Below, piece after piece: positions 3,898-7,430 of a stretch of DNA of 64,000 bases (the stretch's first letter is position 1; each line of letters opens with the position of its first letter). The stretch is from positions 30,784-94,783 of the IMG/VR virus record IMGVR_UViG_3300031787_009175, one strand, 5' to 3'. Both the position numbers and the translations under genes were made by a program. Under the pieces are notes generated by a model. The model was not told the DNA's origin and searched no databases. It saw only the letters and a program-made list of their open reading frames with translations. The DNA is from a virus.

Positions 3898-4422
3898 TTA
3901 TGTATTTAACGTTATTATATATTTTGTGGTTGCCGAAAATCCCTGATTAGTGACTAACTTCATTTCATTTTGAGTTGATAAAAACTTTGCCAATTTATCA
4001 GGTCTCACATTATCACCGCAACAAGAATAATCTATATTATAATTATCAACAAAATTACTTTCATCTAAACCAAAACTTTCAATTACATTGATGTATAATT
4101 TATCGGTAAGTGGTAAAAAAATCACACCATCTGAATTCTTAATCATAAATTCACCAATGTATCTTCCTTCTTTTTTTGTGTTTTGTTTTGTAAATTGGAA
4201 CTCTAAATAATATTGTGTCAGACCATTTTCATCTATCTCACTTGTTACTTGAGCGTCCTTAGTTGATATTCTTGGAATGGAAGTTTCGGCATCAATCATA
4301 GAAAAAAATATTGTAGAACCAGACAATTCTGAGTATTGTTTGTGAAAGTCACTCCTCCCATCTTTCATCACTTTGACTTTTAGTTTTGGTAGAGTTGAAT
4401 TTTTTTTAATGAACCATTCCAT
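3898..4422 (-). CDS. Putative virion/baseplate adaptor (BppU-N-like), paralog of the next gene
   Basis: MEWFIKKNSTLP...GRYIGEF...LPLTDKLYINV, resembling BppU N-terminal domains. Confidence 0.5.
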   Translation of the reverse strand: MEWFIKKNSTLPKLKVKVMKDGRSDFHKQYSELSGSTIFFSMIDAETSIPRISTKDAQVTSEIDENGLTQYYLEFQFTKQNTKKEGRYIGEFMIKNSDGVIFLPLTDKLYINVIESFGLDESNFVDNYNIDYSCCGDNVRPDKLAKFLSTQNEMKLVTNQGFSATTKYIITLNT

Positions 4423-4442: not shown

Positions 4443-4817
4443 TTATGTTTCATCACTTGTATAGCTATCCAAAACATTAATAAATAACTTTTCTCTTATA
4501 GGTATAACCAAAGTACCATCTTCAGTTTTCAAAACGAACTCACCTTGGTATCTACCAACTCTATTTAAGTGTTTTTTTAAGAACTTAAAATAAATATAAT
4601 ACTCTATTTTCGCATTTGGTTCTTCGAAGGTTTTTTCTACAAAACCAGCCGGACTCATATAAATTTTATATGAACCTGTATCCACATCAATCATTGAAAA
4701 ATACAAAGAAGATGTTTCGATTAAGTTCGAAAATGAATCTAATCCACCCCTGCCGTCGTCAACAACCTGCATTTTTAACACAGGCAGAGTTGCATTTTTT
4801 CTTATGTTAAATTCCAT
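4443..4817 (-). CDS. Putative virion/baseplate adaptor (BppU-N-like)
   Basis: MEFNIRKNATLP...GRYQGEF...IPIREKLFINV; start moved to 4817 by alignment with the paralog and the position of the TATTTAT motif. Confidence 0.5.
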   Translation of the reverse strand: MEFNIRKNATLPVLKMQVVDDGRGGLDSFSNLIETSSLYFSMIDVDTGSYKIYMSPAGFVEKTFEEPNAKIEYYIYFKFLKKHLNRVGRYQGEFVLKTEDGTLVIPIREKLFINVLDSYTSDET

Positions 4818-4822
4818 ACATA

Positions 4823-4859
4823 ATAAATACAATCAACTATTGTAATTGGATATATTTAT
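4823..4859. promoter_or_regulatory. Divergent pair of putative late promoters (TATTTAT)
   Basis: ATAAATA at 4823-4829 (minus-sense TATTTAT) and TATTTAT at 4853-4859, each 5-8 nt before a start codon. Confidence 0.6.
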
Positions 4860-4867
4860 ATTAAGAA

Positions 4868-5494
4868 ATGAGAAAACTAATAAAACAAATCTTGGAGGAA
4901 TATTCGAACGAATTTTTTGAAATAAAACCATATTGTTCTTTGGATGATTTACTTTTGGAGGAAATAAGGGCTAATCAAAAAGAGATTAGTGAATTAGGGT
5001 ATATACCAACACCTATATCTGATGATGAAGAGAATATGATTAAATCATATTTATTCACTGTAAACCAAGGTCAAGGCCCTTCGGTACAAAATTTTAACCC
5101 GAATCAAAGTGGTATAATAGGTATATCTAAAAATAAAAAAGGGGTAGAGACTAAAGTACTATTCAAAATACGGTTAACAAGACATTGGTATTTCAGATTA
5201 CATAGAACAGAGGACCCAAAGTTCAAATCAAATCCTAGAGTTATAGACCCAAAACCATTCGAATGTATCGATGCCATAGATAGAAATGCTGACCGATTAG
5301 CTAGATTTGTGTTACAAAGAGACCCAAGCCCAAGAATTGTTTGGGAGGCAAATACTACAGGTATGTTGAGTTTTCTTATGGTTTTCGAACCAAAAAATGC
5401 CCAAGGAACAGAATATGACATAGTCCTAACAAATCAAATAAAAGGGGTCAGTTTTTTTGACCGAATATCACAAAACAAAATACCCCTCCGTTAG
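4868..5494 (+). CDS. Hypothetical protein with an N-terminal LIKQILEE leader (possible head-packaged protein)
   Basis: 208-aa ORF behind a TATTTAT motif; leader resembles those of 54730, 55101 and 29125. Confidence 0.6.
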   Translation: MRKLIKQILEEYSNEFFEIKPYCSLDDLLLEEIRANQKEISELGYIPTPISDDEENMIKSYLFTVNQGQGPSVQNFNPNQSGIIGISKNKKGVETKVLFKIRLTRHWYFRLHRTEDPKFKSNPRVIDPKPFECIDAIDRNADRLARFVLQRDPSPRIVWEANTTGMLSFLMVFEPKNAQGTEYDIVLTNQIKGVSFFDRISQNKIPLR

Positions 5495-5507
5495 ACGGTT
5501 AGGGGTA
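5471..5507 (-). terminator. Intrinsic terminator
   Basis: TACCCCT-aa-CCGT-cta-ACGG-AGGGGTA followed by TTTTGTTTTG on the minus strand. Confidence 0.75.
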
Positions 5508-5680
5508 GAATGTTTCATACGGATTCTCATCTTCGCCGTACCTTCGCCCGATAAGGTATATCCGGGAGACCTACTTAACCACCCCCTCATCGGGGTACCT
5601 CGTGCCCTTTCTTTCGGTTAAGGTTTTTCTTGTTCGCTATTTCAGAACAAGGCAAATGTCTTTGTCTATTATTAGAACAC
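5471..5680 (-). ncRNA. Putative ~200-nt structured non-coding RNA of unknown family
   Basis: GC-rich intergenic segment with at least five helices, bounded by a promoter at 5683-5713 and a terminator at 5471-5507; no credible ORF. Confidence 0.7.
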
Positions 5681-5682
5681 CA

Positions 5683-5713
5683 CAAAGATATAAATAGTTT
5701 TTGATTCTACAAA
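5683..5713 (-). promoter_or_regulatory. Bacteroidota-type housekeeping promoter with overlapping TATTTAT
   Basis: TTTG (5713-5710), N19, TATCTTTG (5690-5683) matches the -33/-7 TTTG/TAnnTTTG consensus. Confidence 0.75.
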
Positions 5714-5729
5714 CTTTCACAGAAAAAAA

Positions 5730-7430
5730 TTAACACTCTTTTCTTAAAGACGCCTCATAGTGTTCAAAACGATTGTGTTCCGTCGGTGTTAAAAGTAACA
5801 AAGCTGGTTTTATTTCGTTTTTTACTGTTTCTTGGAATATGAACGACATCAATGTTTGTTCATAAGGTGATGCAAACTTGGTGTTAATAAAACACTTTCT
5901 ATTTCCTTCTTTGGACATAATCTGTGGCCAATTACAATAAAACACTTCACCTGTCGTATATGGTAATCCTTCGAAAGATTTTATACTTTCGTATCTTGTC
6001 TTAGGAGAATTTGGGTCTAATCCTTGTTGTGGTAGCCTTGGATTGTTTGGCCATTGTAGTTCTCTAAAATGTTGTGGTACATTATACCAAGCCCACTGAG
6101 TTCCATTATCTCCGAAAAATTCAGAATAATTCATTTTGATAAAATCAAAATTTTCTTTTTTGATTAATCCGATTAACTTGTCGTATAAATTCGGAACATA
6201 TCTTGCAAAACCATTTCTGCAGTGACCGTATTTGTCTTCGCTGAAAAACATATCGTCTTCGAAAAAGAAATAATATTTGTGATTACTTCCTTCGAAATGT
6301 TCCGCAATCCACTGTCTTCCACCCGTTATTCCTATATTGTCCTTTTTAACATGTTGGAATCCATATGCTTGGCATAATGCCACATATTGTTCTGTTGTTG
6401 ATAAATCAGTTGAGTTATTTAATAAATACTTTTTTGGTTTATCGATAAAGTTTTTATCATAACTTAACATTGAATGTATAAGTGTTTTGAATTGGTTTGG
6501 TGAATTGAAACCGATGACATATAACGCGACCTCTTCGTCTGTAAACTTAATAGGTTCAGGTTGTAAGTTCAAAATATTTTCCAAAAATAAATTTGGGTCT
6601 GATTGTTTCATATATACGTCGTTTTTAACATCTTCGAAAAATTTACCTAATAGTCCGTTGGATTCTATAAAGAAGGTATCAATCAATTCAGGATTCAGAT
6701 AAGTCATAATAGTGAAAATAGACTCCTCTGTTCCCATATAACCATTATCTAAAGTATCTTTCATAAGATGATAATAAATGGAATTTAACTCTGCTATCGA
6801 ATCTTTTTTTCCTCCGAAAAAACCCGCTCTCGCAACTCTATCAACTCTATTTTTTGAGTATTCGTTCATAGCATTTATTTCAAAACCGTGAATTTCAGAA
6901 TTGGTTTCATAAGGAAAACAAATGAACATAAATTTATTTGTTAGTTTTTGAATTTTTTCCAAAATATTGTCGTGTGTAAAATAACCTGGATGAACCGTAT
7001 TTGATAAACCGGCATCAATCCAAAACATATATTCAGAATCAAACTTGTCCAAAATTTTTGCATCGTGTAATAAGAACATCTTGGACATAACAAGTGGATT
7101 GTACATCTCCAATTTTGCCTGTGTTGACTCAGATAACCAACCGATTTGGTTGTACCACTTTGGATTTGTTCTTATTTTTTGAATTTTATGATAAAAATCA
7201 TTATTGACGAACCAAGTTAAGTCTCTTGTGACAAATTGTGTGTTAGTATCGCTTCTTCTTTCGGATACAAATTTTTTCAATTCCTCATCGCCAAAAATTA
7301 TTAAGTTACAATCTATTTTTAATAAATCTTCTAATTTATTTAAATAGTGTTGGAAATTTCGTGACCATCCGTCTTGTAGTTGCTCACGACCTATTTCCCA
7401 TAAACCTGTTACTAATGTTGTTTTATTCAT
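5730..7430 (-). CDS. Two-domain glycosyltransferase (HtrL/YibB-like plus GT-A-like domain)
   Basis: TTLVTGLWEIGR, YNPLVMSKMFLL, FWIDAGL (HtrL-like); second domain with FFEDD. Confidence 0.7.
   Translation of the reverse strand: MNKTTLVTGLWEIGREQLQDGWSRNFQHYLNKLEDLLKIDCNLIIFGDEELKKFVSERRSDTNTQFVTRDLTWFVNNDFYHKIQKIRTNPKWYNQIGWLSESTQAKLEMYNPLVMSKMFLLHDAKILDKFDSEYMFWIDAGLSNTVHPGYFTHDNILEKIQKLTNKFMFICFPYETNSEIHGFEINAMNEYSKNRVDRVARAGFFGGKKDSIAELNSIYYHLMKDTLDNGYMGTEESIFTIMTYLNPELIDTFFIESNGLLGKFFEDVKNDVYMKQSDPNLFLENILNLQPEPIKFTDEEVALYVIGFNSPNQFKTLIHSMLSYDKNFIDKPKKYLLNNSTDLSTTEQYVALCQAYGFQHVKKDNIGITGGRQWIAEHFEGSNHKYYFFFEDDMFFSEDKYGHCRNGFARYVPNLYDKLIGLIKKENFDFIKMNYSEFFGDNGTQWAWYNVPQHFRELQWPNNPRLPQQGLDPNSPKTRYESIKSFEGLPYTTGEVFYCNWPQIMSKEGNRKCFINTKFASPYEQTLMSFIFQETVKNEIKPALLLLTPTEHNRFEHYEASLRKEC

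What the first reader, a model, noticed from the sequence alone, without database searches (positions are those of the whole stretch)
5471..5713. Unassigned ~200-nt structured ncRNA with its own promoter and terminator
Seen: a GC-rich island in an AT-rich genome. On the minus strand a consensus Bacteroidota promoter (overlapped by TATTTAT) is followed by helices CUUGUUC/GAACAAG, CUUAACC/GGUUAAG enclosing ACCCC/GGGGU, UACCUU/AAGGUA and UACGG/CCGUA. A possible long-range pairing CCCGAU/AUCGGG is present, and the unit ends in a strong terminator. It has no ORF of note and I do not recognise it as tRNA, tmRNA, RNase P or a hammerhead. Inference: an independent phage RNA, possibly expressed both early and late (ribozyme, decoy or regulatory RNA).
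Basis: partly seen in the sequence, partly recalled or inferred. Interest (0 to 1): 0.7.

Follow-up and report, generated by a model that had tools for sequence, protein, structure and literature searches.

The report
Phage pseudoknot RNA paired with RNase-like gene
The GC-rich island is a real, independently transcribed, roughly 200-nt pseudoknotted RNA of a family absent from Rfam; in lake-water jumbo-phage contigs it always sits tail-to-tail with a gene for a RegB/RelE-like putative ribonuclease, so the two look like one RNA-protein cassette of untested function.

Summary
The region has a GC island, a Bacteroidota-type promoter (TTTG-N19-TATCTTTG), several hairpins and an intrinsic terminator on the minus strand. 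There is no Rfam, tRNA or tmRNA match.

Homologues turned up in about 13 phage lineages and twice in one Bacteroidia MAG. Across 22 distinct sequences, 94% of proposed pairs form (75% in shuffles), and 16 of 21 pairs show compensatory changes.

UACCUU/AAGGUA and the long-range CCCGAU/AUCGGG are replaced by P3 (CCCGG/UCGGG) and an H-type pseudoknot (AGGU x ACCU in the P3 loop).

The RNA is always convergent with a conserved ~190-210-aa gene (window 4868-5494). Its stop codon lies in the RNA's terminator. Its predicted fold most resembles T4 RegB and RelE/ParE toxins, but weakly (Z 4.5-4.6).

The pair is present or absent as a unit among related phages. A blind test on newly fetched protein homologues found the RNA in every untruncated locus.

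Best reading (about 0.4): the RNA is the cognate partner of this putative endoribonuclease, most likely an inhibitor. Binding, expression and activity are untested.

The same stretch was noted once before in this scan, in an overlapping window of this genome, not on other DNA.

The parts
5683..5713 (-). Bacteroidota-type promoter: -33 TTTG (5713-5710), 19-nt spacer, -7 box TATCTTTG (5690-5683)
   Evidence: A TAnnTTTG box sits at the same place in 12 of 13 homologues. By eye, TTTG-N19 is present in 10 of 13 lineages.
5471..5682 (-). The RNA gene. The transcript start is inferred to lie a few nt after the -7 box. The 3' end is at the U-tract.
   Evidence: Full-length covariance-model matches to homologues. 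The ends are not mapped experimentally.
5629..5651 (-). P1 hairpin CUUGUUC/GAACAAG. It is variable in sequence, and short or absent in distant lineages.
   Evidence: It is replaced by CACAUC/GAUGUG, AUUUCC/GGAUUU and UUGUCC/GGGGCA in close relatives.
5574..5622 (-). P2 (CUUAACCG 5622-5615 / UGGUUAAG 5581-5574). It encloses the conserved GAAA(A) junction, the conserved UA, P2a (CCCC 5595-5592 / GGGG 5586-5583, loop GAUGA) and the invariant GUG.
   Evidence: One search lists the helices per sequence. In one search, P2 is 96% paired with 5 of 8 pairs compensatory, and 3 of 4 P2a pairs are compensatory.
5547..5572 (-). H-type pseudoknot: PKa AGGU (5572-5569), P3 CCCGG (5566-5562) / UCGGG (5551-5547), PKb ACCU in the P3 loop (5557-5554). 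The invariant CG follows at 5546-5545.
   Evidence: In one search, P3 is 98% paired with 5 of 5 pairs compensatory. The PK helix is 94% paired with 3 of 4 pairs compensatory. PK variants are AGGU/ACCU, GGGU/ACCC, GGAU/AUCC, GGCU/AGCC, GCCU/AGGC, AGUU/AACU and AGCU/AGCU.
5517..5541 (-). P4 hairpin GUACGG/CCGUAU with a 13-nt loop that carries the conserved YGAGA-like motif (GAUGAGAAU)
   Evidence: The stem covaries (GUAUCAA/UUGAUAC, GGUACAA/UUGUAUC, AGUACA/UGUACU, GUGACA/UGUCAC). The loop motif is kept in most lineages.
5471..5506 (-). Intrinsic terminator (ACCCCU 5506-5501 / AGGGGU 5487-5482, inner CCG/CGG, U-tract 5480-5471). Its loop holds the stop codon of the convergent gene.
   Evidence: It is sequence-invariant in the window's clade. 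In distant lineages other G+C hairpins with U-tracts take its place.
4868..5494 (+). Convergent 208-aa gene. It belongs to a family of ~190-210-aa phage proteins with invariant E42, H106, R113, Q190 and G193. The predicted fold is RegB/RelE-like.
   Evidence: family; model, pLDDT 86; fold matches; always next to the RNA.

Best explanation
This is a stand-alone gene for a roughly 190-210-nt structured RNA. Host-type RNA polymerase transcribes it from a Bacteroidota sigma-A-type promoter, and an intrinsic terminator ends it.

The RNA folds into P1, a P2/P2a stack with an A-rich junction, an H-type pseudoknot (P3 plus J2/3 pairing with the P3 loop) and P4 with a conserved purine-rich loop.

The RNA and the convergent gene form one accessory cassette. 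The gene encodes a RegB/RelE-like putative endoribonuclease.

Inferred mechanism: the folded RNA binds this protein and holds it in check or tunes it. It would act like the RNA antidote of a type III toxin-antitoxin pair, but with a different nuclease fold, a single long RNA unit and tail-to-tail gene order. RNA-only copies in a probable host genome would then act as captured antidotes.

Shown: the RNA family, its structure, the promoter and terminator, and the gene linkage. Inferred: expression, RNase activity, binding and the direction of the effect.
For: RNA family and fold:
- Homologues exist in 3 metagenome loci, about 10 further phage lineages and 2 bacterial sites.
- In 22 distinct sequences, 94.2% of cells pair against 75.3% in shuffles. 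16 of 21 pairs change on both sides, 0 of 500 shuffles reach the observed values, and slid controls give 26-50%.
- Within the window's clade the core is almost invariant, while the neighbouring protein is only 58-63% identical in most clade members.

Linkage to the protein gene:
- A core covariance model run over 90 loci (682 kb) hit only loci that also carry the protein homologue, plus the two bacterial copies.
- In a blind test, loci newly fetched by protein alone (L126-128, L132-134) all carried the RNA convergent right after the gene. One truncated locus could not be judged.
- The pair sits in different neighbourhoods. It is absent from most related phages, where the flanking genes abut.

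Protein:
- The model has pLDDT 86.
- The best solved-structure matches are T. thermophilus RelE (Z 4.6, 75 residues) and T4 RegB (Z 4.5, 117 of 153 residues), followed by dozens of RelE/ParE/YoeB/HigB chains.
- BFVD lists a T4-like 'site-specific RNA endonuclease' at probability 0.97.
- The invariant residues are H, R, E, Q and K.

Tandem copies: L126-128 carry two tandem RNA units that differ by compensatory changes.
Against: - There is no expression data, no binding data and no nuclease assay.
- The fold matches are weak (Z under 5, Foldseek E of 0.009 or higher). No sequence profile (Pfam, PHROGs, PADLOC, PDB) recognises the protein.
- Convergent genes that share a bidirectional terminator can travel together without interacting.
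- Known type III antitoxin RNAs are short tandem repeats placed upstream of the toxin on the same strand. Neither holds in the window.
- The bacterial MAG holds the RNA with no detectable protein homologue. So the RNA may have a role that does not need the protein.
Confidence: 0.4

Rival explanations
1. The RNA is an independent trans-acting RNA, for example a sponge or mimic for a host RNA-binding protein or a base-pairing sRNA. It shares only a bidirectional terminator and a mobile neighbourhood with the RNase-like gene.
For: One Bacteroidia MAG carries two copies between housekeeping genes, with no homologue of the protein. The host-type promoter would work in uninfected cells. The near-invariant core fits binding to a conserved host factor.
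Against: The RNA co-occurs with the protein in every phage lineage examined, across protein divergence down to about 25% identity and in different neighbourhoods. A blind test agreed. The RNA was not found in 174 other Bacteroidia genomes searched.
Confidence: 0.22
2. The RNA is a substrate or specificity cofactor of the nuclease. Either the protein processes the RNA into an active fragment, or the RNA directs or activates the protein, much as S1 and RNA context do for T4 RegB.
For: The same linkage evidence applies. The conserved single-stranded purine-rich P4 loop could be a recognition or cleavage site. T4 RegB is known to need extra RNA and protein context (PMC1702504, abstract, listed).
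Against: No conserved RegB-type GGAG site occurs in the unpaired conserved parts. RNA-only host copies make little sense for an activator.
Confidence: 0.15
3. A riboswitch-like sensor. The pseudoknotted domain binds a small molecule and sets how much transcription reads through the terminator as antisense RNA into the RNase-like gene.
For: It has an aptamer-like, highly conserved pseudoknot core followed directly by a terminator, and it lies antisense to the 3' end of a gene.
Against: No conserved anti-terminator alternative exists. The P2a/terminator strand similarity is limited to the window's clade. No co-oriented downstream gene is present. Tandem units each carry their own terminator. The bacterial copies face unrelated genes.
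Confidence: 0.08
4. A self-cleaving or otherwise catalytic RNA.
For: It has a compact pseudoknotted fold with many invariant unpaired nucleotides.
Against: No match to any ribozyme family in Rfam, even at E<=10. It does not sit in a repeat, retroelement or operon context typical of self-cleaving ribozymes. The strict protein linkage points elsewhere.
Confidence: 0.05
5. Not an RNA at all: a DNA site (att, origin or packaging site) or a short protein-coding gene.
For: It is a GC island between convergent genes, and a 40-aa ATG frame exists at 5468-5590.
Against: The variation is compensatory in strand-specific helices, including G-U pairs that would be A-C on the other strand. Promoter and terminator are conserved in position on one strand. 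The ATG is lost in L084. No direct or tandem repeats are present.
Confidence: 0.02

Closest known systems
Type III toxin-antitoxin systems (ToxIN, CptIN, TenpIN): endoribonuclease toxin plus pseudoknotted RNA antitoxin
   Same: A two-part cassette of a putative endoribonuclease and a pseudoknot-forming, non-coding RNA with its own terminator. The cassette is patchily present or absent among related genomes. Some members have tandem RNA units (L126-128). RNA-only copies occur elsewhere, as with phage pseudo-ToxI (PMC3475682, abstract, listed).
   Different: The RNA is one ~190-nt multi-helix unit, not 34-40-nt tandem repeats. The genes are convergent, not RNA-upstream on the same strand. The protein shows a RelE/RegB-like fold, not ToxN/Kid-like, and matches no PADLOC or Pfam model. 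The carrier is a lytic-looking jumbo phage rather than a plasmid or chromosome.
Phage T4 RegB endoribonuclease (RelE/YoeB-like fold)
   Same: A phage-encoded small protein of similar size class. RegB is among the best structural matches (Z 4.5, 117 of 153 residues aligned; BFVD probability 0.97). The conserved residues are of the His/Arg/Glu type.
   Different: No detectable sequence similarity. There is an extra N-terminal region of about 40-90 residues. To my knowledge T4 regB has no dedicated neighbouring structured RNA. Activity and target are unknown here.
Type I toxin-antitoxin pairs with 3'-overlapping convergent antisense RNA (e.g. B. subtilis txpA/RatA, bsrG/SR4; from general knowledge)
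   Same: Convergent transcription, with overlap confined to the 3' ends and the terminator.
   Different: Type I toxins are small hydrophobic peptides. Their antitoxin acts by extended base pairing. Here the overlap is only the terminator hairpin, and the RNA has a conserved tertiary-looking core.
Catalogues of candidate structured RNAs from IMG/VR (Fremin et al. 2023, PMC10690425)
   Same: The same data source (IMG/VR intergenic regions). That catalogue lists thousands of unnamed motifs and may contain part of this RNA.
   Different: I could not check the catalogue's sequences. Its motifs average 67 nt. The main text does not mention a RelE/RegB-linked motif.

Membership tests
Any Rfam 15 family (riboswitches, ribozymes, RNase P, 6S, SRP, tmRNA, known phage and Bacteroidota motifs) | Covariance-model score at or above the family's gathering threshold | tested here: not met
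   There are 0 matches at gathering score in the window and in 7 divergent homologue loci. Only chance-level hits (E>=0.7, far below gathering score) appear at 5300-5900.
tRNA / tmRNA | Cloverleaf or tRNA-like domain recognised by ARAGORN | tested here: not met
   ARAGORN finds none in the window.
Type III TA antitoxin RNA | Array of short (about 34-40 nt) tandem direct repeats | tested here: not met
   No tandem repeat at 5400-5760. There is a single ~190-nt unit here, and two ~198-nt units in L126-128.
Type III TA antitoxin RNA | RNA gene upstream of the toxin gene on the same strand, separated by a terminator | tested here: not met
   The RNA is on the opposite strand, convergent with the protein gene, in all lineages.
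Type III TA antitoxin RNA | RNA forms a pseudoknot | tested here: met
   The pseudoknot helix is 94% paired with 3 of 4 pairs compensatory.
Type III TA antitoxin RNA | RNA binds and inhibits its cognate endoribonuclease, which also processes it | not testable with these tools
   The complex predictor offered takes no RNA chains, so a biochemical test is needed.
RelE/ParE superfamily including T4 RegB (for the neighbouring protein) | Structural similarity to the RelE/RegB alpha-beta fold over the whole domain | tested here: inconclusive
   The top VIA matches are RelE 2khe (Z 4.6, rmsd 3.0, 75 aligned) and RegB 2hx6 (Z 4.5, rmsd 5.0, 117 aligned), followed by about 30 RelE/ParE/YoeB/HigB chains. 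Foldseek gives PDB E 0.07 and BFVD RegB-like probability 0.97 at E 0.024. All are below the Z 8 level that the tool calls reliable.
RelE/ParE superfamily including T4 RegB (for the neighbouring protein) | Sequence-profile match (Pfam, PDB) | tested here: not met
   No Pfam family for the protein, and only scattered weak single-member hits (best E 0.0013) for its 42-member family. The PDB profile search gives no relevant hit. The ESM Atlas gives only a weak lead to DUF4258 (score 0.77).
Riboswitch | Lies in the 5' leader of a co-oriented gene whose expression it controls | tested here: not met
   The terminator is followed by the 3' end of a convergent gene. The co-oriented 105-aa frame at 5104-5421 lies inside the conserved 208-aa gene on the other strand.
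Riboswitch | Specific ligand binding | not testable with these tools
   Needs in-line probing or ITC.
Bacteroidota sigma-A-type promoter | -33 TTTG and -7 TAnnTTTG about 19 nt apart | tested here: met
   Present at 5713-5683. The -7 box is conserved in 12 of 13 homologues. A single occurrence is not above chance (4 found against 4.8 expected in the window).
Intrinsic terminator | G+C hairpin followed by a U-tract | tested here: met
   Read directly (5506-5471). The simple scanner missed it because of its bulged stem and long loop. Every homologue ends in a G+C hairpin plus U-tract.

The most novel reading that the evidence does not exclude
A new kind of RNA-protein toxin-antidote-like module in jumbo phages. 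A RegB/RelE-fold endoribonuclease, for example a host or early-mRNA shut-off nuclease, is kept in check by a dedicated ~190-nt pseudoknotted RNA encoded tail-to-tail with it. A host bacterium has captured the RNA alone as a decoy that disarms the phage nuclease. That would be an RNA-based anti-phage immunity acquired from the phage itself.
Probability: 0.15. Interest if true: 0.9.

Novelty: new variant of a known kind. Interest (0 to 1): 0.72.

Why it matters
This adds a well-supported, pseudoknotted RNA class that is absent from Rfam. It comes from an under-studied group: freshwater jumbo phages of Bacteroidota.

It also ties that RNA to an uncharacterised protein family that looks like the RegB/RelE ribonucleases. 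If the RNA controls the nuclease, RNA antidotes would extend beyond the three known type III families to a different nuclease fold and gene layout.

That result would also give a handle on how these phages manage RNA decay during infection. The RNA-only copies in a probable host offer both a host-prediction marker and a testable case of RNA capture between phage and host.

Tried and rejected
- **Phage GenBank records.** blastn of the region and tblastn of the protein against 50,697 records found no match.
- **Downstream of the HtrL-like gene.** blastn and nhmmer of the RNA against 80 related loci found nothing. The RNA is not tied to that gene.
- **Exact-word scans of IMG/VR.** Two core words gave 0 hits. 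The window's own record is left out of these scans.
I used the search for related loci instead.
- **Model R1** (near-identical seeds) aligned distant homologues as insertions. I replaced it with the core model R2.
- **Weak R1 hits in G018, G033 and G117** (E about 0.002-0.007). The G018 hit is just a terminator. The G033 and G117 hits were not inspected, and neither recurred when R2 was run on the same class group.
- **Tenacibaculum phage PTm1.** This was a lead from a BFVD fold hit. The only R2 hit (E 0.09) lies inside an annotated CDS, and there is no protein homologue. Rejected.
- **RNA-seq evidence.** No RNA holder was listed for the stretch.
- **Remnant of the protein gene next to the bacterial copies.** None was found beyond the shared terminator letters.
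- **Conserved anti-terminator.** The P2a/terminator strand similarity exists only in the window's clade.
- **P4 loop as mimic of the protein's start region** (AUGAGAA). It is not conserved across lineages.
- **Third conserved gene in the cassette.** None was found.
- **Complex prediction** was not used, because it takes no RNA chains.
Full report
**1. What is at the site**

On the minus strand of 5471-5713 the sequence reads as follows:
- a -33 TTTG (5713-5710), a 19-nt spacer and a -7 box TATCTTTG (5690-5683);
- about 210 nt that are far richer in G+C (0.44-0.52) than the flanks (0.25-0.35);
- a bulged G+C hairpin with a U-tract (5506-5471).

ARAGORN finds no tRNA or tmRNA. Rfam 15 gives nothing at gathering score for the whole window. 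A permissive scan of 5300-5900 gives only chance-level rows (E>=0.7).

Taken alone the locus is weak evidence. The MFE z-score is only -2.5. The full promoter pattern is no more frequent in the window than in shuffles (4 against 4.8).

The window belongs to a 94.8-kb IMG/VR virus record, with CheckV completeness of 32%. A complete relative is 322 kb. The sample is lake water.

**2. Context**

The RNA lies between two convergent genes.

Upstream on the same strand is a 566-aa HtrL_YibB-like gene (5730-7430). It has 240 relatives in IMG/VR. The RNA is not found after that gene in the 80 best relatives by blastn or nhmmer, and what follows the gene varies.

On the plus strand, the 208-aa ORF at 4868-5494 ends with its TAG inside the loop of the RNA's terminator. 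It is a real gene. Seven homologues, all exactly 208 aa and 58-100% identical (one is the window's own sequence), exist in the protein collection. Their C-terminus ...NKIPLR is invariant and is encoded by the terminator stem.

**3. Homologues of the RNA**

- Three metagenome loci that encode the 208-aa protein (L083, L084, L085; 60-63% protein identity) all carry the RNA convergent to it. L084 has a different upstream neighbour.
- In these copies the core is almost letter-perfect, while P1 is rewritten compensatorily: CUUGUUC/GAACAAG, CACAUC/GAUGUG, AUUUCC/GGAUUU.
- A 19-nt core word found two more copies in one Bacteroidia MAG. They lie between housekeeping genes: EutBC then RNA then a convergent inositol monophosphatase-family gene; and RNA then a convergent DUF2452 gene and Tex.
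- The two bacterial copies share a 252-nt unit at 83% identity. The second has a broken P3 and a broken terminator. The MAG has no detectable homologue of the protein.
- Neither model found the RNA in 24 other genomes of the MAG's family or order, or in 150 sampled genomes of its class. 'Not found in those searched' is all that can be said.

**4. The family is wider and tied to a protein family**

- A profile search of 1.84 billion representatives found 44 clusters of ~190-210-aa relatives of the protein. An alignment of 42 (A5) has invariant E42, H106, R113, Q190 and G193.
- Searching the fetched phage loci with this profile found distant homologues (about 25-30% identity) in L064/65/67, L005/6/9 and L033/36/37.
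- Each of these has, convergent and immediately downstream, a promoter-RNA-terminator unit that is a divergent homologue of the window's RNA.
- Further loci fetched by protein (L097-L107) or by an RNA pattern (L110-L114) showed the same pairing.
- A core covariance model (R2) was run over 90 loci (682 kb). It hit every locus that holds the protein homologue, plus the bacterial copies, and nothing else at E<0.01.
- As a prediction test, I fetched loci with a different sub-alignment of the protein family. All new untruncated loci (L126, L127, L128, L132, L133, L134) had an R2 match on the opposite strand right after the gene.
- The cassette sits in different places relative to the flanking genes. 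It is absent from most related phages, where those genes abut. No third gene is conserved with it.

**5. Structure**

Per-sequence helix extraction and pair counting on model-aligned sequences give this architecture:
- **5' part:** a variable region and P1.
- **P2:** 8 bp ending in a G-U pair, followed by a conserved GAAA(A).
- **Insertion hairpin:** optional, present in some lineages.
- **P2a:** a conserved UA, then P2a (C-NNN/NNN-G), one bulged G, and the invariant UG that re-enters P2.
- **Pseudoknot:** J2/3 carries four nucleotides that pair with four nucleotides in the loop of P3.
- **After P3:** an invariant CG.
- **P4:** a hairpin whose loop keeps a YGAGA-like motif.
- **3' end:** the terminator.

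On 22 distinct sequences:
- 94.2% of cells pair, against 75.3% in shuffles (0 of 500 shuffles reach this).
- 16 of 21 pairs change on both sides.
- Sliding the partners by 1-3 columns drops pairing to 26-50%.
- P3 is 98% paired with 5 of 5 pairs compensatory.
- The pseudoknot helix is 94% paired with 3 of 4 pairs compensatory. Its variants are AGGU/ACCU, GGGU/ACCC, GGAU/AUCC, GGCU/AGCC, GCCU/AGGC, AGUU/AACU and AGCU/AGCU.

Two caveats apply. The alignment was fitted to the nested helices, though not to the pseudoknot. The window-type rows are misaligned by two columns in P2a, which lowers that helix's count; the true pairing there is CCCC/GGGG.

Homologues do not keep them.

The variation is not that of a coding region, and the only ATG frame loses its start in L084. 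L126-128 carry two tandem units about 198 nt apart, each with its own terminator. The units differ from one another by compensatory changes in P3 and the pseudoknot.

**6. Promoter and terminator**

A TAnnTTTG box lies directly upstream in 12 of 13 homologues. By eye, TTTG-N19 precedes it in 10 of 13 lineages.

Distant lineages end in unrelated G+C hairpins with A-runs before and U-runs after. These are ordinary bidirectional terminators, and they also hold the stop codon of the convergent gene.

The promoter type implies transcription by the host polymerase. That fits early expression and also activity of the bacterial copies. This is inference, since no RNA run holds the sequence.

**7. The protein**

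With the 42-sequence alignment, AlphaFold2 gives mean pLDDT 86 and pTM 0.80.

- **Foldseek against the PDB:** no match at E<=0.001. The first row is RelE2 (E 0.07), and several ParE/YoeB chains are among the rows that follow.
- **VIA-align against 48,161 representatives:** T. thermophilus RelE ranks first (Z 4.6, rmsd 3.0, 75 aligned, residues 97-198). T4 RegB ranks second (Z 4.5, rmsd 5.0, 117 of 153 aligned, residues 42-198). About 20 RelE/ParE/HigB/YoeB/YafQ chains follow (same picture).
- **BFVD:** a T4-like 'site-specific RNA endonuclease' at probability 0.97, E 0.024.
- **ESM Atlas:** the nearest named cluster is DUF4258, at a weak 0.77.
- **Sequence profiles:** Pfam, PHROGs, PADLOC and the PDB find nothing.

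The scores are below what the tools call reliable. I therefore treat 'RegB/RelE-like endoribonuclease' as likely (about 0.6), not shown.

**8. Mechanism**

Shown:
- a conserved, pseudoknotted, non-coding RNA gene;
- its strict genomic coupling with one protein family;
- the mobility of the pair as a unit.

Inferred: the RNA is the protein's cognate partner.

I favour an inhibitor or antidote role, for three reasons:
- Pseudoknotted RNAs that neutralise endoribonucleases are established in type III toxin-antitoxin systems.
- The cassette is patchy, like such modules.
- Some members have tandem RNA units, and a probable host holds RNA-only copies. This recalls phage pseudo-ToxI mimicry in reverse (PMC3475682).

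It is not a member of the known type III families. There are no short repeats, the gene order is opposite, and the nuclease is different.

The rivals are an unrelated trans-acting RNA, a substrate or cofactor, a riboswitch-driven antisense RNA, and a ribozyme. They are listed with odds. None is excluded except the DNA-site and coding readings.

**9. Novelty**

The family is not in Rfam 15. I found no paper that describes it. It may be among the thousands of unnamed IMG/VR motifs of PMC10690425, which I could not check.

The same stretch was noted once before in this scan, in an overlapping window of the same genome (e1-6028259). It was not noted on other DNA.

Noticed in passing
L126:2203-2484, L127:2203-2484, L128:1972-2253 (minus strand): These loci hold two tandem copies of the RNA unit about 198 nt apart, each with its own terminator. 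Only the upstream unit has a clear TAnnTTTG box. The two units differ by compensatory changes in P3 and the pseudoknot, and the upstream unit has a diverged P4 loop.
   Followed up: partly
L086:151-399 and L090:6842-7091 (one Bacteroidia MAG, handle G001): The two bacterial copies share about 90 nt of extra sequence beyond the RNA's terminator. Nothing in the phages corresponds to it. The second copy looks degenerate, with a broken P3 and terminator. The near-identity of copy 1 to the phage RNA could serve as a host-prediction marker.
   Followed up: partly
window 5482-5494 and alignment A1: The last residues of the 208-aa protein (KIPLR, then stop) are encoded by the 3' half and loop of the RNA's terminator. 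They are invariant in all seven 208-aa homologues. The hairpin's non-coding 5' half is also identical in the five DNA copies of the window's clade that were read, so the RNA, not the protein, seems to set the constraint.
   Followed up: partly
window 5730-7430 and loci L002-L081: The region downstream of the HtrL_YibB-like gene is a variable spot in this phage group. Relatives carry a 125-aa gene, other convergent ORFs, or the RNA-protein cassette there.
   Followed up: partly
window 5446-5462 (minus strand): A second terminator-like hairpin (GGTCA...TGACC plus a T-run) lies just after the RNA's terminator, inside the 3' coding part of the 208-aa gene. It is not kept in L083.
   Followed up: no
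window 3898-4422 and 4443-4832 (minus strand): Two adjacent paralogous small genes (174 and 129 aa, no Pfam match) share a domain with the 125-aa gene of relatives and with the ends of much longer proteins in L083 and L085.
   Followed up: no
alignment A5 (protein family): One member of the 42-protein family gives a weak Pfam hit to crAss001_48 (E 0.0019). No other member does.
   Followed up: no
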